Shown here: positions 11,633 to 25,640 of the stretch, in pieces | Numbering within the stretch: position 1 is the first letter of the stretch | Layout of the letters: each line of letters begins with the position of its first letter | Assembly (NCBI GenBank): GCA_934183305.1 | Contig: CAKPSF010000003.1 | Coordinates: 10,673-74,672, forward strand | DNA: 64,000 bases | DNA from: an uncultured Clostridia bacterium | GTDB lineage: Bacteria > Bacillota > Clostridia > TANB77 > CAG-508 | Reading direction: 5' to 3' | Notes under the pieces: generated by a model | What the model saw: only the letters and a program-made list of their open reading frames with translations | Told to the model about the DNA's origin: nothing | Database searches by the model: none | Position numbers and translations under genes: made by a program

Positions 11633-12312
11633 TTTATTTCAATACCTCCAAATACCGCTGTACCATTTATATAAATTGTATGGCTATTTTCGTCTGCTTT
11701 TGTATTTGCTTTATTTTCTACTCCACCAAATATAGGCATTGATTTAATTTTAATTTTTACATTTGAAGGTACACGAATTTCTATTCCTCCAAATGTACTA
11801 CTTGCATTAATAACAACATCTGACTCTATAATTGCATTTCTTAAATCACATTTAACTCCACCAAATACTGCTGTTAAATCTGCTCCTGTAAATTTTTCTT
11901 CATCAAATTTTACATTTTGGCTTGCAAATGTTGCACAATATGAATTTTCTCCATTTCTTTTTTCGTTTAATTTCTTTATTTCAGCACTTACTTTTCCACC
12001 TAATGTATCTTTAAAAATAATTGATAAACCAATTATAACTAAAATAGTTGGAAATGCCAATTTCAATATTAAATCAAAATCTAAAATATTTTGACATCCT
12101 AAAAGCAAGGCTACACCAATTAATAATCCAATTAAATTTCCTGTTTTCTCATTATCTCTAAATAAGCCTATAAAACATGGTATGATAATAAAAAGCGTCC
12201 ACCATCCATCAAAAAATATATTAATATTTGTTATACCTAGCGCATTTCCTCCAAATATTACTCCTATAATTATTAAAACTACTCCCCACAATATGTTACT
12301 AAAATTTTTCAT
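11629..12312 (-). CDS. LiaF-like protein (N-terminal LiaF-type TM domain plus C-terminal DUF2154/toast-rack domain)
   Basis: Two or three N-terminal TM helices, then the repeating FGG(V/I)E pattern (TAVFGGVKCD, STFGGIEIR, MPIFGGVE, TAVFGGIEIK) typical of LiaF/YvqF C-domains. Confidence 0.5.
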   Translation of the reverse strand: MKNFSNILWGVVLIIIGVIFGGNALGITNINIFFDGWWTLFIIIPCFIGLFRDNEKTGNLIGLLIGVALLLGCQNILDFDLILKLAFPTILVIIGLSIIFKDTLGGKVSAEIKKLNEKRNGENSYCATFASQNVKFDEEKFTGADLTAVFGGVKCDLRNAIIESDVVINASSTFGGIEIRVPSNVKIKIKSMPIFGGVENKANTKADENSHTIYINGTAVFGGIEIK

Positions 12313-12419
12313 TTTTAATTTTCCTCCTTTTTATTTAACATATATTTGTTATCTTTTTCTTCCAATAGCATTAAAGCTTGAAATTCATATGATAATAAAT
12401 CTTGTATTTGTGTTTATTT

Positions 12420-13343
12420 TTAAGCTACAAATGAATCTGGTTTTTGAGCTCTTGGAGTTTTATAATAAGTTTCACTATAATCTGGTATAAAATCTTTAAT
12501 AGGTATTAATGTATAGTCTTTTAATATTACATATTTATATGTAAATGTTAATACTTCGTCATAATATTTACTCATAAGTTCACTTTTCATTGTTGTTGTA
12601 GTTGGTCCATTGCCTGTATAATAACTATATATTTCATAAAAGCCTTTGTCTGTTTTTAATATTTTTTCATTATATATTCTAATTATTTTTTCTCCTTCAA
12701 AGTTTCCTTTTACTTCTGTTAAATTAGCTGGTTTTTCATAATCATGTACATATAATTTATTATCTTTTACAATTAATTCATTCGCAACAAAATCATAAGA
12801 TTGTTTTTTTCCAAGATAAAGCTCTGAATATGATTCTATATAACTCTTTTGAAATTTGTATTTTGCTAATGTATAGCTTTCATAAGATGTTCCAGCTCTT
12901 TTATTATCAAGATTTTCGTCATATAATTTATATATTGTATCCTTTGTATCTACAAATTCTATATCTGCTCCCAAACTTGGTTTTATATTTAGTATTTTTA
13001 TATTGCTTGGAACATCATATACTTTTTGATATATAAAGTTTCCTTCATTTAGTTTGTTTGCATCAAAAATATACAAGCCATTATTTGTAGTAAAAGTATA
13101 TTCTGTAAACATTGATTCCTGATTTAAAATTTCTGCTCCACTACTAATTTTTTTATAACTATTTACATCTTTATTATTTTTTTGCGCAACTGCTTCTACC
13201 AAATTTTGTGGTTCTTTGTTAACAGATGTTGTTTTATTTTGTTTTTTATTTGATGAAATTAAAATAACAAATGTAACAACTAAAATTAAAACTAAAATTA
13301 CTATTCCAAATATTATCTTCTTATTTTTAAAAAAATCTTTCAT
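12420..13343 (-). CDS. Hypothetical membrane-anchored protein (307 aa)
   Basis: N-terminal TM anchor IIFGIVILVLILVVTFVILI, followed by a Tyr/Lys-rich extracellular region. Confidence 0.4.
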   Translation of the reverse strand: MKDFFKNKKIIFGIVILVLILVVTFVILISSNKKQNKTTSVNKEPQNLVEAVAQKNNKDVNSYKKISSGAEILNQESMFTEYTFTTNNGLYIFDANKLNEGNFIYQKVYDVPSNIKILNIKPSLGADIEFVDTKDTIYKLYDENLDNKRAGTSYESYTLAKYKFQKSYIESYSELYLGKKQSYDFVANELIVKDNKLYVHDYEKPANLTEVKGNFEGEKIIRIYNEKILKTDKGFYEIYSYYTGNGPTTTTMKSELMSKYYDEVLTFTYKYVILKDYTLIPIKDFIPDYSETYYKTPRAQKPDSFVA

Positions 13344-13391
13344 ACTAATTAATCCCCTTATTTTTTATAATTATATTTTTGTTACTACTTA

Positions 13392-13745
13392 TTAATCAAA
13401 TTGTGTTTGCCAGTTTTCATTATTAGAAGCTTCAAAACACATTTTAATCTGTTCTTTACTTGTTTTTTCTTCTGCTAAGTTAGTTGGTAGTTCTTCTAAT
13501 GAAAAGTATTTTATTTCAGTTGTTTCAATATTTTCAACAAATTTTCCACCAACAACATTGCATAAAACAAATACTTTGCATATGCCATAAGCATATTGTG
13601 GTTTATTATGTTTGTTCCTATCTTGGATAGCAATTATTTTTACTGTTTCAATATCTAGTCCTGTTTCTTCCTTTACTTCTTTTATTGTATTTCCATTGCT
13701 CATTTTAACCATTTTTCCATTTTCATAACCTCTAACCTTACTCAT
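13392..13745 (-). CDS. N-terminally truncated NUDIX paralog (possible pseudogene)
   Basis: Retains only the distal Nudix box (TIKEVKEETGLDIE) and the C-terminal half. There is no GGxxExGE, and the upstream in-frame extension is blocked by the stop of the preceding gene 8 nt away. Confidence 0.4.
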   Translation of the reverse strand: MSKVRGYENGKMVKMSNGNTIKEVKEETGLDIETVKIIAIQDRNKHNKPQYAYGICKVFVLCNVVGGKFVENIETTEIKYFSLEELPTNLAEEKTSKEQIKMCFEASNNENWQTQFD

Positions 13746-13753
13746 TTCATAAA

Positions 13754-14170
13754 TTAACTTTTTGTATCACATTTTAAGAACTCTTTAATTTGCCTTATTA
13801 TATGAGGAATATTATAGTTTCCAGCAAACTTATCATTATTTAGCAAACCATCGTCAATTTTAACCCATTCTAATTTGTTTTTTTCTTCTACTAATTTAAC
13901 TTCATTTTCTAGAATACCATAATATACTTGTAAATTGTTTTCATATTTAAAATAATTTAAATCCATAAAATGATCTAACTTAATATCAGTATTACTGATT
14001 CCAGTTTCCTCAAATAACTCCCTATAAGCTGCATTATCATTGCTTTCTCCTTCTTCTACTTTTCCTCCAACGAAGTTATACATTCCTTTATATGGTTCTT
14101 TTGCCCTTATACAAAAAAGGCAATCACTTAAATCTTTATTAAATACAACTATTAAATTTAGTTTTCTCAT
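13754..14170 (-). CDS. NUDIX hydrolase
   Basis: Complete Nudix box GGKVEEGESNDNAAYRELFEETGI. ATG start with GAGGT RBS. Confidence 0.8.
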   Translation of the reverse strand: MRKLNLIVVFNKDLSDCLFCIRAKEPYKGMYNFVGGKVEEGESNDNAAYRELFEETGISNTDIKLDHFMDLNYFKYENNLQVYYGILENEVKLVEEKNKLEWVKIDDGLLNNDKFAGNYNIPHIIRQIKEFLKCDTKS

Positions 14171-14206
14171 AATGTTTTACCTCAAATTTTATTTTATAAC
14201 AAATTA

Positions 14207-14235
14207 TTTATAACATAAATTTAATTATTTATCAA
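14207..14235 (-). promoter_or_regulatory. Sigma-A promoter TTGATA-17-TATAAA for the NUDIX pair
   Basis: Read on the minus strand as TTGATAaataattaaatttatgtTATAAA, about 30 nt upstream of the NUDIX RBS. Confidence 0.45.
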
Positions 14236-14247
14236 TTAGCATTTTAT

Positions 14248-14284
14248 ATATTTTAAAAATACTACCAGTAAAACTGATAGTATT
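14248..14284 (-). terminator. Hairpin/terminator between the GMK-like gene and the NUDIX promoter
   Basis: On the minus strand: AATACTA-tcagttttactgg-TAGTATT (7-bp stem) followed by UUUUAAAAUAU. Confidence 0.35.
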
Positions 14285-14304
14285 CTATTTAAAGCTTTTA
14301 TTTT

Positions 14305-14751
14305 TCAAACATCTTTTTTTATTTTTTCTAATATTTCCTGAGGTGAATATTCAGACGTATTAATTACTAGATTTGCTGAATCTGGTATATATATTGAGTC
14401 ACCAGAAGTTATCCTGCAATTAATTTCATCTTCATCAATTCCCCTTGCTAATAACCGTTTATATGTTTCTTCCTTTGAGCACCATAAATGTACCCAACAA
14501 GTAGAAGGACAAATACTTACAATTTTCTTGGCAATTGTAATTGATACTGGAGATGCACAATACCCACTTTTATTTAGGCAATCTAACCAAGATTTCGGCG
14601 TTCCATAATATTGTCCTAAATTTTTAAGTAGTGCAAATTCAAGAGATGGTTCTAGATACTCATTTTTATTAAAATTTTCAATAAATTGTTTGGTATTAAT
14701 AAAAATAGCATCTATTCCATTCCGCTCTCCTTTTCTTGGTTTTCTAGTCAT
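14305..14751 (-). CDS. Guanylate-kinase-like domain protein lacking the P-loop
   Basis: MTRKPRKGERNGIDAIFI aligns with Gmk TTRxPRxGExDGxDYxFV (the post-P-loop region). YYGTPKSWLDCLNKSGYCASPVSI aligns with YYGTSKEAVEEVLASGKDVILDI. RLLARGIDEDEINCRI aligns with RLxxRGxDSEEVIxKR. The first in-frame start is this ATG, with a TGA 10 codons upstream. There is no GxxGxGKS and no obvious SD. Confidence 0.55.
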   Translation of the reverse strand: MTRKPRKGERNGIDAIFINTKQFIENFNKNEYLEPSLEFALLKNLGQYYGTPKSWLDCLNKSGYCASPVSITIAKKIVSICPSTCWVHLWCSKEETYKRLLARGIDEDEINCRITSGDSIYIPDSANLVINTSEYSPQEILEKIKKDV

Positions 14752-14790
14752 GTGAGAAAGATTTATATAAATATATATCTTTCAATTTAT

Positions 14791-16215
14791 TTAACTTATT
14801 TTTTTCTTTAACTCTTCAATTAATTTGCTATCAAAATTCCTTTTTTCTTCATCTGACATTTCATCCCAATTTTTTCTTCTATTATTAGATTCAAACACCG
14901 CTCCCAATGGATAACCTGTTCCATTATATTCTTTATTTAAGTTTTCTTTATTTAAACGTCCATTATTTATATTTTTTATTAATTTAGTTTCACCATTTGG
15001 AAATGCAATTGCTATGTTTTGTTCAAAGTGGCATGTATAATCTTTTAAATTTTTAGTCTTTTCTTTTAAATAATTCCAAAATTGCTCATTTGTTGCATTA
15101 TCTGGAAGCTGTCCTCCCCATCTTCTGGTTGCTACACCTGGCTCACCTTTTAATTCGTGAATAAAGAATCCGGTATCATCTCCGATAGTAATAAGCCCAC
15201 TTATTCCACACCATGTTCTAGCTTTTGCAATAGAATTTTCTTCAATTGATGTTGTTCCTTCAATTACATCAATATCATCTTCGTAATCTTTTAATGTTAA
15301 AGTTTCATATTCATCACCCAAATATAATTTATAATCAGCTATTTTAGATGGATTTTTGGAAGCAATTAATATTTTCTTTTTATTTGCAGGTAATATAATT
15401 GGGCAAAACCTTTTTTTAATATATTTTGAATATTCATCTAAATTTTCAAAATATGGTACTGATATAAGTAATTTTAAATTAAAATTTAAATTGTCTTTAA
15501 TTTTATTCAAAATTATTCGTTCATTATCCATTCTCTTTGATATTGTAATTTTTCCCATATCTTTTGAATCTCTTACAAATAAAAGCCATGGTTCTATTCT
15601 TCTTTCCAATAAAGTTTCCACGCCACTTTGGATAGTTTTTGTTTTTATGTACTCCCCATTATAAGAGGCTTCGCTTAACAAAATAACTTTAGATAAGCCT
15701 TCACTTTTTAACCTTTGAATCATAGGTGTAAATATAGGATCAACCTCTGGGTCTGTAATTAATCCTCCAATTTCAATAAATAGTTTTGAAGGTTTTCCAA
15801 TATTGCTCCACATTTTATGTATTCTATACTCAACATATAATGACATGTGAGGATTTATTTGAAGATTTTCGTTTTCACCATATTCATTTATAAAATCACG
15901 GTATAGTTCTCCTCCTAATAAATAATGTTCTCTTCCCCATGTTTTTCCTTTATTGTATTTCTCGTAAATGCCGAAATCATCATGTCCAATAGCCGTATGT
16001 CTACCATTTGCATTTGTATTTAATAAACCATCAAACTTTATTGCATCAGAGCCTTCTGTATTTGCAAGTAATTGAGCAACTAAAGTTCCTTTTCCAATAT
16101 CGGATCTTGGGTATCCTAGTACAAAATAATATTCAATATTTTCGTTAGGTTTATACATTTCTATTAAATTATTTAATTGTCTAATTGTTTTTCTGTTTTC
16201 ATAAACTCCACTCAT
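14791..16215 (-). CDS. Fusion protein: CTP-synthase N-terminal (synthetase/amidoligase) domain homolog plus divergent Ham1/ITPase-like domain; no glutamine amidotransferase domain
   Basis: Residues 30-270: [23 protein letters not shown] aligns with PyrG [37 protein letters not shown] aligns with [21 protein letters not shown] aligns with VVLVEIGGTVGDIE. Residues 280-474: [13 protein letters not shown] aligns with RdgB KVVLATGNVGKV, and IAKARTW...[25 protein letters not shown] aligns with ILKARHA...[24 protein letters not shown]. No GATase Cys/His motif anywhere. ATG start with RBS AAAGGAG. Confidence 0.55.
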   Translation of the reverse strand: [474 protein letters not shown]

Positions 16216-16326
16216 ATTCAGACAACTCCTTTATGAAAAAAATTTGTTTATATATTTTACCACGTTTTTTCTTCATAATATGTCGAAACATGTTTTGTTT
16301 AATTTTATTTTTAAATTATGTTTCTG

Positions 16327-17310
16327 TTAGTTTTCTATAAATTTTTGAGTTATAAATATTTTATCTAATGTATTTTGCTTAGCATTATTTATTATAACTT
16401 GTATAACATAACTTAAGTTTCTTTCAATATATTCTTGTAAGTCTTTTTTATCTACTATTGCATCTTCACAAATTTCTTTATAAGCCTTGATAATTATTTT
16501 CTCTATCTCTTCTTTTTTCTTATTTTTTAATAGTTTATTAATTTCATTTAATTCAAAACCAGTAATTTCTAAATCGTATATATTTCTTTTTGCTAGTTTA
16601 CAAGCAATTACTTCAAATAAAACTATCTCAAAAATATTTATAATTAGGTCTTTATAATCTTCACTATAAGCATATAATAATCGTTCTATTTTTTCACTTA
16701 AAAAAATATTACAGAATTCGTTTTCTAAATAAATAGAATATACATATTCTTTTATAAATTCTACCCCATCTAGCTTTCCTAGCAAATTATTATATAGTGG
16801 ATAATCAGCAGTAATTTTCATATCATGTGCTTTAAAGTCTGGGTTATATATTTTCAAAAAACCTTGTATTCCTCCAATAATTGTATCGTTATAGGTTTGA
16901 TTATTGGTTTTTAATTTATTTTGTTTCACTTTTGCATATATTACCCTAATTATATTTAACATTCTATCTATCTGCTTTCTTCCGTTGTAATAAAGTTCAT
17001 TTAAATTACTCTTTTTTATTTTTTCTAATGCTGCATCAGGATTATTAAAAGTTTTAAGATACATACTAATAGTGTAATAATTTGATTTATTTATTTCTTC
17101 TACAACTTCTTTTCGTACCGAACTATTATCTATTCCATTGTATTTATATATTTTTTCATCCAATAGCTGTATAATATTCATTTGTAGATTTATAATTTCA
17201 TTTTCTGTAATCATTCCATTATTGTATGCATCTTTAATTAAACTTTCAAAATAATCTTTGTCATCTAAATTCGACCTGTTAATTTTACTTTTAATTTCAA
17301 GTTTATTCAT
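16327..17310 (-). CDS. Hypothetical protein (327 aa) of a Firmicutes two-gene DUF pair
   Basis: No recognisable catalytic motif. Start re-assigned to ATG 17310 (the track start is GTG at 17319). It overlaps the stop of the upstream 17303.. gene by 8 nt, which suggests translational coupling. Confidence 0.4.
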   Translation of the reverse strand: MNKLEIKSKINRSNLDDKDYFESLIKDAYNNGMITENEIINLQMNIIQLLDEKIYKYNGIDNSSVRKEVVEEINKSNYYTISMYLKTFNNPDAALEKIKKSNLNELYYNGRKQIDRMLNIIRVIYAKVKQNKLKTNNQTYNDTIIGGIQGFLKIYNPDFKAHDMKITADYPLYNNLLGKLDGVEFIKEYVYSIYLENEFCNIFLSEKIERLLYAYSEDYKDLIINIFEIVLFEVIACKLAKRNIYDLEITGFELNEINKLLKNKKKEEIEKIIIKAYKEICEDAIVDKKDLQEYIERNLSYVIQVIINNAKQNTLDKIFITQKFIEN

Positions 17311-17770
17311 AGTCTTCACCTACTTCTATATAATCTATTACTTCTCCATTTAATATTCTCTGTTTCATCTCATACATAATTGTTCCAGATAGATACTCTG
17401 TATCTCCTTTACACACACCATTAAAAGCTGTTTTCATAAATTTTATCAATTCATCATCTGTAACTAAATCCATCGTTTCATTTTTATATTCATAAAAAAT
17501 ATCTAATAAATTATATAAAGTTAACACATAGTTTTCTTGATTAATATATGGTGAATCGCAAAACTCTTTTATAATTTTATCTATTATTCCAGTTCTAAAC
17601 TCAATTCTCCCTGTATTTTTCAATATATCTATTCTTTTTTCCATTAAACTTTCTATTTGTGTATCACTTAGTGTTAAACCATACTTATTAGTGAATTCAT
17701 TACACTTTTTTATATTAGCTACTTCAATTTGTCTTTTGTTATTTATTATTTCTAAATAAGAATTTTCCAC
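17303..17770 (-). CDS. Hypothetical protein (about 155 aa), first gene of the DUF pair
   Basis: GTG start either way: 17770 is preferred because AGAGGTG lies 6 nt upstream, while 17779 abuts the RBS. No known motif. Confidence 0.35.
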   Translation of the reverse strand: MENSYLEIINNKRQIEVANIKKCNEFTNKYGLTLSDTQIESLMEKRIDILKNTGRIEFRTGIIDKIIKEFCDSPYINQENYVLTLYNLLDIFYEYKNETMDLVTDDELIKFMKTAFNGVCKGDTEYLSGTIMYEMKQRILNGEVIDYIEVGEDYE

Positions 17771-17860
17771 TTCAAACACCTCTTATTTTATATAACATAT
17801 TTATATATAAAATAACAGTCTTGAATTTTTTCTCATTTTGTGGTATAGTAATTATAGTAA

Positions 17861-17906
17861 AAAAGAGAGAAAACACTAAAAACCAAAGTATTTTCTCTCT
17901 TTTAAT
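17861..17906 (-). terminator. Rho-independent terminator downstream of ogt
   Basis: On the minus strand: AAAAGAGAGAAAA-(17-nt loop)-TTTTCTCTCTTTTTT, immediately after the ogt stop at 17970. Confidence 0.55.
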
Positions 17907-17969
17907 TTTTTGCATTTCAATATTTATTTTTTTGCACTTGCATTATAAGTTTCTTCTAAAATCTCACTA

Positions 17970-18497
17970 CTATTTGTAGATTTTAGGTACAGTAAATTTA
18001 CTCATATCATTTTTTTCTATTTCTAGAAGTTTTATCTTATTTTCCATTCCTCCACCATATCCAGTAAGAGATCCATTTGTTCCAACAATTCTATGGCATG
18101 GAATTATTATACATATTGGATTCCAGCCTACTGCTCCTCCAACTGCTTGTGCAGACATTCTTTTTATCCCATTATTTTTTGCAATTTCTTTTGCTATATC
18201 ATTATATGTAATAGTTTCTCCATATGGAATTTTATTCATAATATCTATAACTTGTTTTCTAAATGGTGTTAGATTCTCAATTTTATACTTAGGTGTAAAA
18301 TTTGGAATATCACCACCAAAGTATATGTCTAACCATTTTTCAGTTAAATCAAATATTGGTAATTCTTTTTCTTCAAATTCTTCCATATGCTTAGAGGAAT
18401 CTTTTGACTTTTCAAACCAAAGTCCTGTTAAAAACTCTCCATCGCTTTGCATATAAATTATTCCAAGTGGTGAATTATATTCTTTTTTGTAAAACAT
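17970..18497 (-). CDS. ogt: Methylated-DNA--protein-cysteine methyltransferase
   Basis: Active-site PCHRIVGTNGSLTGYGGG. Start ATG 18497 with RBS AAGGAG; the track start is GTG. Confidence 0.8.
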   Translation of the reverse strand: MFYKKEYNSPLGIIYMQSDGEFLTGLWFEKSKDSSKHMEEFEEKELPIFDLTEKWLDIYFGGDIPNFTPKYKIENLTPFRKQVIDIMNKIPYGETITYNDIAKEIAKNNGIKRMSAQAVGGAVGWNPICIIIPCHRIVGTNGSLTGYGGGMENKIKLLEIEKNDMSKFTVPKIYK

Positions 18498-18516
18498 AAA
18501 TTTAATCTCCTTTAGT

Positions 18517-19248
18517 TTATTTATTATCACTTATCATCTTTCTCTTAAATATTATAATAGATAAAATCAAAACAGCAATAGTATAACATGAAAAAATCAA
18601 AATATTTTTATTTGTTATTATTTCTATGTTATTATTCATAACTCCCTTTATTATTTTAACTGCAGCTTCAAATGGTAAATATTCACAAACATTTCTAAAG
18701 AATCCTCCAAGCATTTCTGACGGAAAATATATTCCACTTGTAAAGCACACTAATTGCACTACTATACTTGATATTCCGGATGATGCTTTTTCTGTAAATA
18801 TGCTGCCAATTAATATTCCAATTGATATAAATAATATTGAAATAATAATAGAAATTAGTATCGCTAATATTATATTAATGCTAAATTGTAGACCTAGACA
18901 AATTGCAAGTATAAAGAACAATATCTCTTGAATTAATATGATTGGTATAAGTGATAACATATATCCTAAAATATAGTCTATAGCTTTCATTGGACTTACA
19001 CCTAACCTAATTAATAGTGATGTCGTTCTATCTTTTGAAATAAGTGTTGCAGTAAAAAGTGTTATAAATGAAAATCCAAAAACTATTATTCCAGGAGTAA
19101 AGTTCTCTAGCTTGTAATTATCACTTGGTATATTAAATTGTTGAAAAATAAATAGTAAAAATAAAGGTAGTATAATTGCAAATATTAAACTTAAAGGATC
19201 TCTAATTAATTCTTTAAAATTTCTTTTTGAAAAATTTAATATTCTCAT
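18517..19248 (-). CDS. ABC-2 type transporter permease
   Basis: Six predicted TM segments. Its start overlaps the stop of the upstream ATPase gene (ATGA). Confidence 0.6.
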   Translation of the reverse strand: MRILNFSKRNFKELIRDPLSLIFAIILPLFLLFIFQQFNIPSDNYKLENFTPGIIVFGFSFITLFTATLISKDRTTSLLIRLGVSPMKAIDYILGYMLSLIPIILIQEILFFILAICLGLQFSINIILAILISIIISILFISIGILIGSIFTEKASSGISSIVVQLVCFTSGIYFPSEMLGGFFRNVCEYLPFEAAVKIIKGVMNNNIEIITNKNILIFSCYTIAVLILSIIIFKRKMISDNK

Positions 19249-24281: not shown

Positions 24282-24770
24282 TTATTTTCTAATATATGTT
24301 ACATAACTATAATCATAAGGATTTTCTTCATTTTTTAATCCTTTTTCTTTATCTATAATTTCCCACTCTTCCTTATTTATTTCAGGAAAACTTACATCTC
24401 CATCAAATTCTTGATTTATTTCTGTTATATACATTTTATTAGCATATGGCATTAGTAGCTTATAAATAGTTGCTCCACCTATTATAAAGTTTTCTTCTGC
24501 TGAATTTATATATTTGTCTAACTTAGAAATATCGTCTAATATTTCTACTCTTTCGTCATTTATATTCATTGTCATATCATTACATAATATAACATGTTTT
24601 CTGTTTGGTAATATTCTTCCTAAAGATTCAAAAGTTCTTCTTCCCATTATAATTGTATGTCCTGTTGTAAGTTTCTTAAATCTCTTTAAATCCTCTGGTA
24701 AATGCCATATTAATGCATTATTTTTTCCAATTATATTATTACTTGCCTTGGCTACTATTATACTTAACAT
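24282..24770 (-). CDS. folA: Dihydrofolate reductase
   Basis: MLSIIVAKASNNIIGKNNALIWHLPEDLKRFKKLTTGHTIIMGRRTFESL. Confidence 0.9.
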   Translation of the reverse strand: MLSIIVAKASNNIIGKNNALIWHLPEDLKRFKKLTTGHTIIMGRRTFESLGRILPNRKHVILCNDMTMNINDERVEILDDISKLDKYINSAEENFIIGGATIYKLLMPYANKMYITEINQEFDGDVSFPEINKEEWEIIDKEKGLKNEENPYDYSYVTYIRK

Positions 24771-24782
24771 ATATTTCTCCTT

Positions 24783-25640
24783 CTATTTAGCTACTGGAAT
24801 TTTTCCTAATTTTATATCTTTGTTATAATCATATCCTTGAATTTCAAAGTCTTCAACTTTAAACTCATAAAAATTATTAGTTGGATTGTTTATAACTAAT
24901 TTAGGTGTTACATCCATTGGTTTAGCTTCTATTAATTGTTTTATTAAAGGAATATGCCTATCATATATATGACAGTCTCCAATATTATGTGTTAATGTTC
25001 CTGGCTTTAGTCCAGAAACTTGTGCAAACATATATAAGAGAGCTGCATATTGCATTGTATTCCATCCATTTGCAGCTAGCATATCTTGAGAACGTTGATT
25101 TAGTATTAAATGTAATTTTCCCTCCTTAACTAGCCATTGAGTTCCAAATGCACATGGTTCCAAATTCATATCTTTTAATTCTTCATGATTAAATAAATTA
25201 GTCATAATTCTTCTACTAGCTGGATCATTTTTTAATAAGTATAAAACATAGTCTACCTGATCCATTTCTTTAATTCCTTCTTTAGTCTTAAACTTATATT
25301 TTTTAGCAAATTGGTATCCATATGCTTTTCCTATAGATCCATTTTCATCTGCCCACTGATCCCATATATGTGAATTTAAATCTTTAATATTATTAGACTT
25401 TTTCTGCCATATCCACAAGATTTCATCAATAGCTCTTTTAACTGTATTAGTATTATTCCTTAATGTAATCATTGGAAATTCTTTTTCTAAATCATATTTA
25501 TTTGTTACTCCAACTAAAGATATATAGTTAGCTTCGTTTCCATCTTCCCATCTAGTTCTAACTCCTGTTCCTTGTGATGAATACCCATGTTCAAGTATTT
25601 CCTTACATGTTTTTATAAAATTCTCGTCTGCCTGTGTCAA
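24783..25640 (-). CDS. thyA: Thymidylate synthase (B. subtilis ThyA-type)
   Basis: The TRWEDGNEANYISLV, IWDQWADENGSIGKAYGYQF and LEPCAFGTQW motifs parallel B. subtilis ThyA. TTG start with RBS AAGGGAGG. Confidence 0.9.
   Translation of the reverse strand: MTQADENFIKTCKEILEHGYSSQGTGVRTRWEDGNEANYISLVGVTNKYDLEKEFPMITLRNNTNTVKRAIDEILWIWQKKSNNIKDLNSHIWDQWADENGSIGKAYGYQFAKKYKFKTKEGIKEMDQVDYVLYLLKNDPASRRIMTNLFNHEELKDMNLEPCAFGTQWLVKEGKLHLILNQRSQDMLAANGWNTMQYAALLYMFAQVSGLKPGTLTHNIGDCHIYDRHIPLIKQLIEAKPMDVTPKLVINNPTNNFYEFKVEDFEIQGYDYNKDIKLGKIPVAK

What the first reader, a model, noticed from the sequence alone, without database searches (positions are those of the whole stretch)
13392..17779. Co-directional nucleotide cluster: DUF pair, the CTPS_N-Ham1 fusion, GK-like, NUDIX and a NUDIX remnant, organised as at least three transcription units
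Six minus-strand genes with gaps of 8 to 134 nt. I can see a probable extended -10 (TGgTAAAAT) upstream of the fusion gene, a hairpin after the GK-like gene, and a clean TTGATA-17-TATAAA promoter for the NUDIX pair. The NUDIX genes are therefore probably separately regulated but adjacent. The two upstream hypothetical genes overlap by 8 nt, which suggests translational coupling, and neither has a recognisable motif. The concentration of NTP-sanitising folds (Ham1, NUDIX x2, GK-like) beside two uncharacterised proteins suggests a functionally linked island, not housekeeping. Housekeeping gmk and pyrG would be complete and located elsewhere.
Basis: partly seen in the sequence, partly recalled or inferred. 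Interest (0 to 1): 0.55.

Follow-up and report, generated by a model that had tools for sequence, protein, structure and literature searches.

The report
Amidoligase–Ham1 fusion with dedicated kinase
The six-gene cluster is a patchwork: only a rare, uncharacterised fusion enzyme (half of a CTP synthase joined to a nucleotide-cleaning Ham1 domain) and its neighbouring guanylate-kinase-like gene form a conserved pair, and in this genome the kinase has lost its ATP-binding end.

Summary
The six minus-strand ORFs, their spacings, domain calls, hairpin and promoter-like strings are all present as described. The cluster is not one functional island.

- **Conserved core.** The CTPS_N–Ham1 fusion (14791-16215) and the GK-like gene are adjacent in 19 of 26 lineages, in either order. 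These span Clostridia, Bacilli, Saccharibacteria and other candidate-phyla bacteria. The reciprocal test held: 2 of 2 GK-like proteins looked up sit beside a fusion.
- **DUF pair.** DUF6323–DUF6179 is a separate two-gene cassette. It occurs with the same 8-nt overlap in unrelated Clostridia contexts, and one 97–99% identical strain lacks it.
- **NUDIX genes.** They are lineage-specific, but some NUDIX gene lies near the fusion more often than expected.
- **Decay.** Compared with sister strains, this window has lost about 178 nt of the GK-like gene (promoter, ribosome-binding site, start codon, P-loop). It has also lost 286 nt of the second NUDIX gene. The same alleles recur in independent metagenomes. 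The fusion is intact and under strong purifying selection (dN/dS 0.06).
- **Chemistry.** The fusion keeps the CTP-synthase amidoligase catalytic residues without a glutaminase domain. It keeps the Ham1 catalytic residues but lacks the SHR base-specificity motif.

Best reading: an ammonia-dependent nucleotide-base amidoligase coupled to an NTP pyrophosphatase, served by its own NMP kinase. The substrate is unknown.

The parts
14791..16215 (-). CTPS_N-Ham1 fusion gene (474 aa). A CTP-synthase-type amidoligase domain (about residues 28-255) with no glutaminase domain, a linker, and a Ham1/ITPase-like domain (about residues 280-474). Intact.
   Evidence: Pfam and NCBIfam hits. The AlphaFold2 model has pLDDT 89.7 and pTM 0.87. 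Foldseek matches CTP synthases at E about 1e-12 and Ham1/RdgB at target-normalised TM about 0.8. Invariant K42, K60, D80, E148, G150, G151, K191 and Q196 align with CTPS catalytic motifs. dN/dS is 0.06 against L005 and L031. The identical protein occurs on 12 metagenome contigs.
14305..14751 (-). 5'-truncated remnant of the GK-like NMP-kinase partner gene (148 aa against 180-182 aa in sister strains). It lacks the promoter, Shine-Dalgarno sequence, start codon and P-loop (TGASASGKST).
   Evidence: Alignment to L005. Every homologue from other lineages in the alignment has the P-loop. No Shine-Dalgarno sequence precedes the ATG at 14751. The Pfam match starts at profile position 38.
14757..14782 (-). 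Junction of the roughly 178-nt deletion that removed the 5' end of the GK-like gene. It sits within a roughly 26-nt imperfect direct repeat.
   Evidence: BLASTN blocks against L005, L019 and L031 overlap here. Alignment.
14256..14286 (-). Hairpin 19 nt after the GK-like stop codon. It is the probable intrinsic terminator of the fusion/GK unit, with a weak U-tract.
   Evidence: Fold (14-bp stem, -14.2 kcal/mol, z -3.69). Not called by the strict scan.
16254..16262 (-). TGgTAAAAT extended -10-like string, 38 nt upstream of the fusion ATG.
   Evidence: for position. Conserved in L005 and L031, and retained in L031 where the upstream DNA is different. The motif frequency equals chance, so support comes only from position and conservation.
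13754..14170 (-). Intact small NUDIX hydrolase (138 aa, Nudix box GKVEEGESNDNAAYRELFEETG). It is a lineage-specific neighbour.
   Evidence: dN/dS 0.05-0.07. An 83% homologue lies in L029/L030, where there is no fusion.
14207..14235 (-). TTGATA-17-TATAAA promoter-like string upstream of the NUDIX gene.
   Evidence: The -10 hexamer lacks the conserved final T, and the site is not listed by the consensus scan.
13392..13745 (-). Remnant of a 204-aa Nudix_N+NUDIX gene. A 286-nt frameshifting deletion (junction 13685-13692) removed the N-terminal domain and the first half of the Nudix box. The original start (ATG 13720) now runs into a TGA after six codons.
   Evidence: The sequence is read.
16327..17310 (-). 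DUF6179 gene (327 aa). It is the second gene of an independent two-gene cassette.
17303..17770 (-). DUF6323 gene (155 aa from the GTG at 17770). It is the first gene of the cassette and overlaps DUF6179 by 8 nt.
   Evidence: Pfam 1.5e-48. The same 8-nt overlap is seen in L024, L027 and L029.

Best explanation
The region is a strain-variable mosaic of three unrelated units.

(1) The real functional entity is a two-gene module. It pairs a bifunctional enzyme with a dedicated guanylate-kinase-family NMP kinase. In the enzyme, a CTP-synthase-type amidoligase domain has lost its glutaminase partner and is fused to a Ham1-type NTP pyrophosphohydrolase domain. By analogy with CTP synthase, the amidoligase domain should use ATP to phosphorylate a lactam carbonyl of a nucleotide base and let free ammonia displace the phosphate. 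The fused Ham1-like domain should hydrolyse a nucleoside triphosphate, either substrate or product, to the monophosphate plus pyrophosphate. The kinase should feed or recycle the corresponding monophosphate. The module therefore looks like a nucleotide base-interconversion, salvage or sanitising device. It is found mainly in candidate-phyla bacteria, one Nanoarchaeia MAG (in split form) and some uncultured gut Firmicutes. The substrate is unknown. A 6-oxo or 2-oxo purine nucleotide (IMP/ITP, XMP/XTP) is my leading guess.

(2) The DUF6323-DUF6179 pair is an unrelated, translationally coupled cassette of unknown function, so far found in Clostridia MAGs.

(3) The NUDIX genes are lineage-specific neighbours of a kind that tends to gather near the module.

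In this particular genome the kinase partner and the second NUDIX gene have been inactivated by recent deletions. The fusion gene is intact and under selection.

Shown: the anatomy, linkage, deletions, motif conservation and selection. Inferred: the chemistry, the ammonia dependence, the substrate and the physiological role.
For: Linkage:
- The GK-like gene is adjacent to the fusion in 42 of 51 loci, which is 19 of 26 lineages defined at 85% N-domain identity. It lies upstream in most lineages and downstream in the window's Clostridia clade and in L011. Start/stop codons overlap by 4 nt in L002 and L017.
- No other neighbour is conserved across lineages.
- Reciprocally, the GK-like family is discrete: 53 clusters at 151 bits or more, then a gap to canonical kinases at 78 bits or less. 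Both members looked up lie next to a fusion.

Coupling of the amidoligase to an ITPase-type activity recurs in four formats:
- Fused, in most lineages.
- Split, in Nanoarchaeia L014.
- CTPS_N alone, two genes away from a YjjX-type NTPase_I-T gene (a GreA gene lies between) in L013.
- A fused but motif-degenerate Ham1 domain, with a separate Ham1-like gene next door, in L015.

Catalytic competence:
- The amidoligase motifs are invariant in 35 sequences and align with T. thermophilus and S. solfataricus CTPS. These are the P-loop GKG, the K of IKFDG, DD-F, EIGG..D.E and KTK..Q.
- There is no GATase domain.
- The Ham1 motifs N..K, E, DDTG and PG are kept, but the C-terminal SHR is replaced by EEKRxFDK.

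GK-like family:
- It keeps the P-loop, TR..R.GE, the Glu equivalent to yeast GK E69, YYG(T/S) and the lid Arg.
- The equivalents of yeast GK S34, Y50 and D100 are changed.

Independence and decay:
- DUF pair independence.
- The deletions are real and recur across samples.
- Selection: fusion dN/dS 0.06.
- NUDIX enrichment: 7 Nudix-box ORFs within 3 kb against 1.9 expected from the outer flanks, P about 0.004. Pfam-called NUDIX genes also sit beside the fusion in L064 and L065.
Against: - No biochemical or expression data exist, and no paper mentions this architecture or the DUFs.
- The conserved KTK..Q motif binds the triphosphate of UTP in CTP synthase (from my knowledge of the E. coli structures). 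The simple reading 'ammonia-dependent CTP synthase' therefore cannot be excluded.
- A pyrophosphatase and a kinase acting on the same nucleotide would form a futile cycle unless the base changes in between. The order of the steps is conjecture.
- Seven of 26 lineages lack the adjacent kinase. In this species the kinase is dispensable, since truncated alleles are common.
- The NUDIX enrichment rests on a regular expression and a small background sample.
- I could not examine whole genomes for pyrG, gmk, rdgB, purA/B or guaA/B.
Confidence: 0.65

Rival explanations
1. Housekeeping reading. The fusion is simply the organism's ammonia-dependent CTP synthase welded to its RdgB/Ham1 house-cleaning enzyme. 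The GK-like gene is its gmk. It would be a compaction of ordinary nucleotide metabolism in small genomes.
For: - All CTPS amidoligase catalytic and UTP-triphosphate-binding motifs are conserved, as are the Ham1 catalytic motifs.
- The named hosts are mainly candidate-phyla bacteria, with one Nanoarchaeia MAG. I know both as small-genome groups.
- The fusion is under strong purifying selection.
- No pyrG, gmk or rdgB paralogue lies in the 64-kb window.
Against: - Scores are far below the equivalog cut-offs: PyrG 27 against 463 bits, RdgB 67-88 against 145-234, Gmk 43 against 160.
- The GK-like gene is P-loop-deleted in at least five independent assemblies of this species. As far as I know gmk is essential in bacteria, so another gmk must exist.
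- Stand-alone Ham1 genes sit beside the fusion in L002 (one copy) and L065/L066 (three copies).
- The SHR specificity motif of ITPases is absent, and the GK guanine-N2 contact is lost.
- The family is very rare: 26 representatives at E <= 1e-30 among 1.84 billion cluster representatives.
Confidence: 0.17
2. All six genes form one functionally linked nucleotide-sanitising island, with the DUF pair as unknown accessory subunits.
For: - The genes are co-directional and tightly spaced.
- The same six-gene order is found in several strains of this species.
- NUDIX genes and other NTP house-cleaning genes recur near the fusion in other lineages.
Against: - The DUF pair is found without the fusion in three other contexts.
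- It is absent from the near-identical strain L031 and partly deleted in L019 and L021.
- It is never next to the fusion outside this species.
- The NUDIX genes near the fusion in different lineages did not cluster together as one family.
- Five independent indels within 5 kb among closely related strains indicate a loosely constrained patchwork.
Confidence: 0.08
3. Anti-phage defence or another conflict system that manipulates nucleotide pools.
For: - The region is strain-variable.
- The NUDIX protein hits a PADLOC candidate model, PDC-S07, at 1.8e-13.
- Nucleotide-modifying enzymes are common in defence systems (general knowledge).
Against: - The fusion, the GK-like gene and the DUF proteins give no PADLOC hit (one weak HamA match at 0.0046) and no meaningful PHROG hit.
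- Neighbours in other lineages are mostly housekeeping genes such as ruvA/ruvB, clpP, topoisomerase and a tRNA.
- The PDC-S07 hit is a generic NUDIX match.
Confidence: 0.04
4. The whole cluster is decaying junk in this genome and has no current function.
For: Two of the six genes are truncated here, and other strains have truncated DUF genes or ogt.
Against: - Fusion dN/dS is 0.06 and NUDIX1 is 0.05-0.07.
- The fusion protein is 100% identical on 12 contigs from different samples.
- The deletions look recent, because the retained parts still show dN/dS of 0.1-0.24.
Confidence: 0.05

Closest known systems
CTP synthase PyrG (glutamine-hydrolysing; E. coli 1S1M, T. thermophilus 1VCM)
   Same: - The N-terminal domain has the same fold (Foldseek E about 1e-12).
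- It has the same catalytic motifs: P-loop GKG, the catalytic Lys, the Mg-binding Asp and Glu, the GG ring, and KTK..Q.
- The expected chemistry is the same: ATP-dependent activation of a base carbonyl followed by amination.
   Different: - There is no class-I glutaminase domain. A Ham1 domain takes its place.
- The loop that carries the ammonia gate in PyrG is about 12 residues shorter.
- Identity is only 16-21% in the Foldseek alignments, and the score is 27 bits against the 463-bit TIGR00337 cut-off.
- The substrate is unproven.
RdgB/Ham1/ITPA non-canonical purine NTP pyrophosphatases (S. aureus 4BNQ, E. coli 2Q16)
   Same: - The C-terminal domain fold matches (target-normalised TM 0.76-0.81).
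- The catalytic N..K, E, DD(T/S)G and PG motifs are kept.
   Different: - The domain is fused to an amidoligase.
- The C-terminal SHR motif that lines the base pocket of ITPases is replaced by EEKRxFDK.
- The FGYDPIF motif is altered to GYPLGAVF.
- Scores are below all equivalog cut-offs.
- One clade has lost the catalytic motifs.
Guanylate kinase Gmk (yeast 1GKY/1EX6)
   Same: In full-length family members the fold family matches. The P-loop, TR..R.GE phosphate clamp, Glu69 equivalent, YYG(S/T) and lid Arg are conserved.
   Different: - The family is discrete, with a 73-bit gap to canonical kinases.
- Equivalents of yeast S34 (now His), Y50 (now Ala/Ser) and D100 (now Ser/Ala) are changed. 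This suggests a different base specificity.
- The window's copy lacks the P-loop altogether.
Phage 2-aminoadenine (Z-base) pathway: MazZ + PurZ + host kinases
   Same: The logic is the same, by analogy from my own knowledge only. An NTP pyrophosphohydrolase, an ATP/GTP-dependent base-aminating ligase of the same P-loop superfamily as PurA and CTPS, and a guanylate-kinase step work together to convert one purine nucleotide into another.
   Different: - The enzyme families differ (PurZ is a PurA homologue, MazZ is a MazG).
- That pathway is phage-encoded and uses aspartate, not ammonia.
- There is no sequence relationship to this module, and nothing here shows that a modified base is made.

Membership tests
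CTP synthase (PyrG) | Amidoligase (CTP_synth_N) domain with ATP-binding and catalytic motifs | tested here: met
   Pfam PF06418 scores 41.8 bits against a 26.1 cut-off. K42, K60, D80, E148, G150, G151, K191 and Q196 are invariant and align to the CTPS motifs. Fold match at E about 1e-12.
CTP synthase (PyrG) | C-terminal class-I glutamine amidotransferase domain | tested here: not met
   No GATase hit. Residues 280-474 are a Ham1 fold.
CTP synthase (PyrG) | Equivalog-level sequence score (TIGR00337 / NF003792) | tested here: not met
   27.2 against 462.75 bits, and 28.4 against 308 bits.
CTP synthase (PyrG) | Converts UTP to CTP | not testable with these tools
   This needs an enzyme assay or pyrG complementation.
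RdgB/Ham1 ITP/XTP pyrophosphatase | Ham1 fold and catalytic motifs (N..K, E, DDSG) | tested here: met
   PF01725 scores 89.9 bits against 22.5. Motifs. Target-normalised TM 0.76-0.81 to 4BNQ and 2Q16.
RdgB/Ham1 ITP/XTP pyrophosphatase | C-terminal SHR base-specificity motif and equivalog score | tested here: not met
   SHR aligns to 'refdk' in the family profile. TIGR00042 scores 67 against 145 bits, and NF011397 scores 87.7 against 234.
Guanylate kinase (Gmk) | P-loop ATP-binding motif | tested here: not met
   The window ORF starts at the residue equivalent to 32 of the 182-aa L005 protein. The P-loop TGASASGKST has been deleted. Intact family members do have it.
Guanylate kinase (Gmk) | Guanine-specific contacts (yeast S34, E69, S80, D100) and equivalog score | tested here: inconclusive
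   The E69 and S80 equivalents are kept, while S34, Y50 and D100 are changed (residue roles are from my recollection of the yeast GK-GMP structure). TIGR03263 scores 42.6 against 160 bits.
NUDIX hydrolase | Complete Nudix box GX5EX7REUXEEXGU | tested here: met
   13754-14170 carries GKVEEGESNDNAAYRELFEETG. PF00293 scores 52.6 bits.
NUDIX hydrolase | Complete Nudix box in the 13392-13745 ORF | tested here: not met
   Only ...NTIKEVKEETGL remains. The first half and the N-terminal domain are removed by a 286-nt deletion relative to L005, L019 and L021.
DUF6323 / DUF6179 cassette | Pfam membership and conserved pairing with an 8-nt overlap | tested here: met
   E-values 1.5e-48 and 1e-78. The same pairing is seen in L024, L027 and L029.
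Intrinsic terminator | G+C-rich stem followed by a U-tract | tested here: inconclusive
   The stem is stable (z -3.69), but it has only 3 G-C pairs and 4-5 U. It is not called by the scan.
Known anti-phage defence systems (PADLOC) | Match of the core proteins to a defence-system model | tested here: not met
   The fusion, GK-like and DUF6179 proteins give no hit. NUDIX gives only a generic PDC-S07 hit.

The most novel reading that the evidence does not exclude
The module is a previously undescribed route that re-aminates oxo-purine nucleotides at the nucleotide level. Examples would be ITP/IMP to ATP/AMP, or XTP/XMP to GTP/GMP, using ATP and free ammonia. It would have a built-in Ham1 'safety valve' and its own kinase. 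It might substitute for PurA/PurB or GuaA in organisms with small genomes that are thought to depend on nucleotide salvage. That would be repair or salvage of deaminated nucleotides rather than their mere disposal.
Probability: 0.15. Interest if true: 0.85.

Novelty: new variant of a known kind. Interest (0 to 1): 0.5.

Why it matters
CTP synthase is the textbook case of base amination at the triphosphate level. Its amidoligase half was not found described on its own in the full-text searches made here.

This work defines a rare but phylogenetically scattered family in which that half is coupled to an ITPase-type pyrophosphatase and a private NMP kinase. The coupling is by fusion, by split genes or by adjacency. 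The hosts named in the records are mostly candidate-phyla bacteria, generally regarded as unable to make nucleotides de novo.

If the enzyme aminates something other than UTP, it would be a new reaction in nucleotide salvage or repair. It would also help explain how such organisms balance their nucleotide pools.

For annotation, the current automatic label 'non-canonical purine NTP pyrophosphatase' describes only half of the protein, and the 'guanylate kinase' label on the partner is probably wrong in specificity.

For this window specifically, the lesson is cautionary. A tidy co-directional cluster turned out to be a strain-variable patchwork containing two pseudogene remnants.

Tried and rejected
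- **Literature.** Searches for DUF6179/DUF6323, for the CTPS-Ham1-GK combination, for glutaminase-less CTP synthases and for Saccharibacteria pyrG or CTP synthase found nothing relevant.
- **Defence and phage libraries.** PADLOC and PHROGs scans gave nothing meaningful for the core proteins.
- **RNA elements.** Rfam found no riboswitch or other RNA element in window 12000-19000. It also found none upstream of the module in eight other loci, where the only hit was a tRNA in L001.
- **Paralogues in the window.** tblastn found no pyrG, gmk or rdgB paralogue in the 64-kb window. Whether canonical copies exist elsewhere could not be answered, because only one genome-collection scan was allowed and loci are limited to 10-kb flanks.
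- **Promoter statistics.** Consensus matches are at or below chance. I did not rely on them.
- **Neighbour clustering.** All-against-all BLAST did not detect the NUDIX association because NUDIX proteins are too divergent. A Nudix-box regular expression was used instead, and it misses some Pfam-called NUDIX genes.
- **Assembly artefact.** I considered that the truncations might be assembly artefacts. I rejected this because the same alleles occur in several independent assemblies, and L018 is 100% identical to the window over 5.4 kb.

Full report
**Observation**

The window is low-G+C DNA (about 23-34% in 1-kb bins, about 23-29% around the finding) with almost all genes on the minus strand. The six ORFs of the finding are present. 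Their spacing is as reported:
- DUF6323/DUF6179 overlap by 8 nt (ATGAATAA).
- DUF6179 to fusion: 111 nt.
- Fusion to GK-like: 39 nt.
- GK-like to NUDIX: 134 nt.
- NUDIX to remnant: 8 nt.

Pfam and NCBIfam confirm every domain call:
- 14791-16215 combines CTP_synth_N (E 1.1e-10) and Ham1p_like (2.5e-25).
- 14305-14751 matches Guanylate_kin only from profile position 38.
- 13754-14170 is a complete NUDIX.
- 13392-13745 matches only the second half of the NUDIX profile.
- The two upstream 'hypotheticals' are DUF6179 (1e-78) and DUF6323 (1.5e-48).

- TGgTAAAAT is at 16254-16262.
- TTGATA-17-TATAAA is at 14207-14235.
- A hairpin is at 14256-14286.

The hairpin is significantly stable (z -3.69) but has a short U-tract. 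The promoter strings are no more frequent than chance in this A+T-rich DNA. TATAAA also lacks the conserved last T of the -10 hexamer.

**Where it comes from**

The fusion protein is 96% identical to one on a Hadza-gut 'uncultured Clostridia bacterium' MAG contig (L005). The exact protein occurs on 12 metagenome contigs. One of these, L018, is 100% identical to the window over 13200-18600.

**Two genes are remnants**

In L005, L019 and L031 the GK-like gene is 180-182 aa. It has its own Shine-Dalgarno sequence and a P-loop (VTGASASGKST). The window, like L018 and L020-L023, lacks about 178 nt that contained the upstream region, ribosome-binding site, start codon and P-loop. The junction (14757-14782) lies in a roughly 26-nt imperfect repeat. 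What remains starts at an internal Met and has no Shine-Dalgarno sequence.

The second NUDIX gene is 204 aa (Nudix_N + NUDIX) in L005, L019 and L021. The window has a 286-nt frameshifting deletion (junction 13685-13692). The original start codon now runs into a TGA after six codons.

Other strains carry other lesions:
- L019 and L021 have a 334-nt deletion across the DUF6323/DUF6179 junction.
- L031 lacks the DUF pair precisely (window 17850-16300).
- In L005 and L031 the 5' two-thirds of ogt is replaced. In L005 the inserted DNA carries a P-loop NTPase gene.

The 5-kb region is therefore a hotspot of indels among closely related strains. The truncations are real alleles, not assembly errors. 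Despite this, the fusion gene shows dN/dS 0.06 and NUDIX1 shows 0.05-0.07 against L005 and L031.

**What is linked to what**

I collected 51 loci that encode a relative of the fusion's amidoligase domain. They fall into 26 lineages at 85% identity.

The GK-like gene is adjacent in 42 loci, or 19 lineages. It is usually upstream, and downstream in the window's Clostridia clade and in L011. In L002 and L017 the coding regions overlap by 4 nt. Clustering of all neighbouring ORFs found no other family conserved across lineages.

The GK-like proteins form a discrete family of 53 clusters scoring 151-295 bits. A gap separates them from ordinary guanylate kinases at 78 bits or less. The two members I looked up without prior knowledge of their context both sit next to a fusion gene.

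The DUF6323-DUF6179 pair behaves differently. It recurs with the same 8-nt overlap next to deoC, feoAB or dabb/ogt in other Clostridia, without any fusion. It is next to the fusion only in this species.

The specific NUDIX genes are also species-restricted. An 83% homologue of NUDIX1 lies in L029, which has the DUF pair and ogt but no fusion. This suggests that the fusion/GK module was inserted into, or lost from, an older neighbourhood.

Even so, some NUDIX gene lies within 3 kb of the fusion in at least six lineages. There are 7 Nudix-box ORFs against 1.9 expected from the outer flanks, P about 0.004. Pfam also calls NUDIX genes in L064 and L065. Other house-cleaning or salvage genes recur nearby as well:
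- Stand-alone Ham1: one in L002 and three in L065/L066.
- A YjjX-type NTPase in L013.
- A weak MazG-like match about 5 kb away in L001, a HIT-family gene about 3.5 kb away in L002, purine nucleoside phosphorylase in L065, and a deoxyribosyltransferase-like gene in L016.

It has no support as a fixed six-gene system.

**The fusion protein**

The family is rare. Only 26 representatives reach E <= 1e-30 among 1.84 billion 50%-identity cluster representatives. About seven of these are full-length clusters, and there are also stand-alone halves. Members come from uncultured Clostridia and Bacilli, Saccharibacteria, Nomurabacteria, Paceibacterota and, in split form, Nanoarchaeia.

The AlphaFold2 model is confident (pLDDT 89.7, pTM 0.87). 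It matches CTP synthases in the N-terminal domain and Ham1/RdgB in the C-terminal domain.

In an alignment of 35 members the invariant residues include the P-loop GKG (K42), K60, D80, E148-x-G150-G151, D155, E157, K191 and Q196. In the HMMER alignment to T. thermophilus and S. solfataricus CTP synthase these fall on five motifs: GKG, (I)K(I)D, D(I)GHYE, E(V)GGTVGDIE and KTKPTQ. From my knowledge of the E. coli enzyme, these are the ATP-, Mg2+- and UTP-triphosphate-binding and catalytic residues.

The loop that forms the ammonia gate in PyrG is about 12 residues shorter, and there is no glutaminase domain. Any amination must therefore use free ammonia or another nucleophile.

The Ham1 domain keeps N..K, E, DDTG and PG. 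The C-terminal SHR motif of ITPases aligns to EEKRxFDK, and FGYDPIF has become GYPLGAVF. Its base preference may therefore differ from ITP/XTP.

A divergent clade has lost the Ham1 catalytic motifs. Its one examined locus has a separate Ham1-like gene next door. Together with the split arrangement in L014 and the CTPS_N-plus-YjjX arrangement in L013, this argues that the amidoligase and an ITPase-type activity are functionally coupled. They do not look accidentally fused.

**The kinase**

Intact GK-like proteins keep five features: the P-loop, the TR..R.GE phosphate clamp, the Glu equivalent to yeast GK E69, YYG(S/T) and the lid Arg. The equivalents of yeast S34, Y50 and D100 are replaced by His, Ala/Ser and Ser/Ala. 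As I recall the yeast GK-GMP structure, D100 contacts the guanine 2-amino group. An NMP kinase with altered purine specificity is the natural reading. IMP or XMP are candidates, but that is inference.

**Mechanism**

The best-supported statement is generic. The module couples an ATP-dependent, ammonia-using base amidoligase to an NTP pyrophosphohydrolase, with a dedicated NMP kinase. It acts in nucleotide interconversion, salvage or sanitising.

- **Most conservative specific version.** An ammonia-dependent CTP synthase. This cannot be excluded because the UTP-binding motif is conserved.
- **More novel version.** Re-amination of oxo-purine nucleotides, with the Ham1 domain as a safety valve. 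This fits the Ham1, GK and PNP themes and the altered GK pocket, but it is unproven.

In this genome the kinase partner is inactivated in most sampled strains, so it is dispensable here. The organism must also have another gmk.

**DUF pair**

DUF6179 folds as an all-alpha protein (pLDDT 82). Its most conserved motif (PDF..D..I.ADYP.YNN, residues 157-175) lies in the one low-confidence loop. It has no sequence or fold relative among solved structures. I cannot assign a function. It is simply not part of the nucleotide module.

**Transcription units**

Three units remain plausible: the DUF pair, the fusion with or without the kinase ending at the hairpin, and the NUDIX genes.

The best evidence is comparative. 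In L031 the DNA upstream of window position 16300 is unrelated, yet the 85 nt before the fusion ATG are conserved, including TGgTAAAAT. The hairpin is also present in L005 as far as one search's alignment reaches (about its first 20 nt). No riboswitch or other Rfam element is present. Only RNA data can settle this.

**Verdict**

The 'island' interpretation is only partly right. The valuable content is a rare, apparently undescribed two-gene module built from known enzyme families. It is seen here in a partly decayed state.

Noticed in passing
L065:1695-7925 and L066 (same arrangement): A co-directional cluster in the lineage of L006, whose record is titled an uncultured Bacilli MAG. The gene order is purine nucleoside phosphorylase, Ham1 (216 aa), GNAT, Ham1 (184 aa), Ham1 (203 aa), GK-like, CTPS_N-Ham1 fusion, NUDIX (276 aa). 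That is three extra Ham1 paralogues beside the module.
   Followed up: partly
L013:7986-12400: In a Saccharibacteria MAG the amidoligase domain stands alone (281 aa). It is flanked by NUDIX, GreA, a YjjX-type NTPase_I-T (PF01931) and another NUDIX. A weak NDK-like gene lies two genes upstream.
   Followed up: partly
L014:9992-12249: In a Nanoarchaeia MAG the two halves are separate genes (284 aa and 197 aa). An ORF of 259-301 aa with no Pfam match lies between them.
   Followed up: partly
P0255: A 612-aa protein in which the CTPS_N-like region occupies residues 334-599, after about 330 residues of something else. This is another architecture for the glutaminase-less amidoligase domain.
   Followed up: no
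window 16786-16842 (DUF6179 residues 157-175): The most conserved motif of DUF6179 is P157 D158 F159 .. D169 Y170 P171. Y173 N174 N175. It falls in the only low-confidence loop of an otherwise confident all-alpha model. No solved structure resembles the protein.
   Followed up: partly
window 18115-18516 versus L005:7550-8107 and L031: In two sister strains the 5' two-thirds of the ogt gene is replaced. In L005 the inserted DNA carries a 185-aa P-loop NTPase gene (AAA_28-like). Only the last 48 codons of ogt remain.
   Followed up: partly
window 16286-16295 (minus strand): The palindrome AAACATGTTT lies just upstream of the TGgTAAAAT in front of the fusion gene. It is conserved in L005, L019 and L031, even though the upstream DNA differs in L031. 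It may be an operator.
   Followed up: no
window 17286-17603; 16300-17850; 13685-13692; 14757-14782: At least five independent indels separate strains that are 92-100% identical across this 5-kb stretch. Each is flanked by short direct repeats of 8-26 nt, which is typical of replication slippage or illegitimate recombination.
   Followed up: yes
L016:5538-9526: In an uncharacterised metagenome contig (record untitled) the fusion gene sits between ruvA and ruvB. A nucleoside 2-deoxyribosyltransferase-like gene precedes it, and there is no GK-like gene.
   Followed up: no
window 24282-25640: By synteny with L018, which is identical to the window across the cluster, the 285-aa and 162-aa ORFs here are probably thymidylate synthase (285 aa) and dihydrofolate reductase (162 aa). 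They lie about 8 kb upstream of the cluster, so the organism appears to make dTMP itself.
   Followed up: no
L004:5559-7420: In a Saccharimonadales MAG an Ada/AlkA fusion and an ogt-like gene lie just upstream of the fusion gene, separated from it by a DUF1428 gene. An ogt gene also lies near the fusion in this window. In L029 ogt accompanies the DUF pair without the fusion, so this is probably coincidence.
   Followed up: partly
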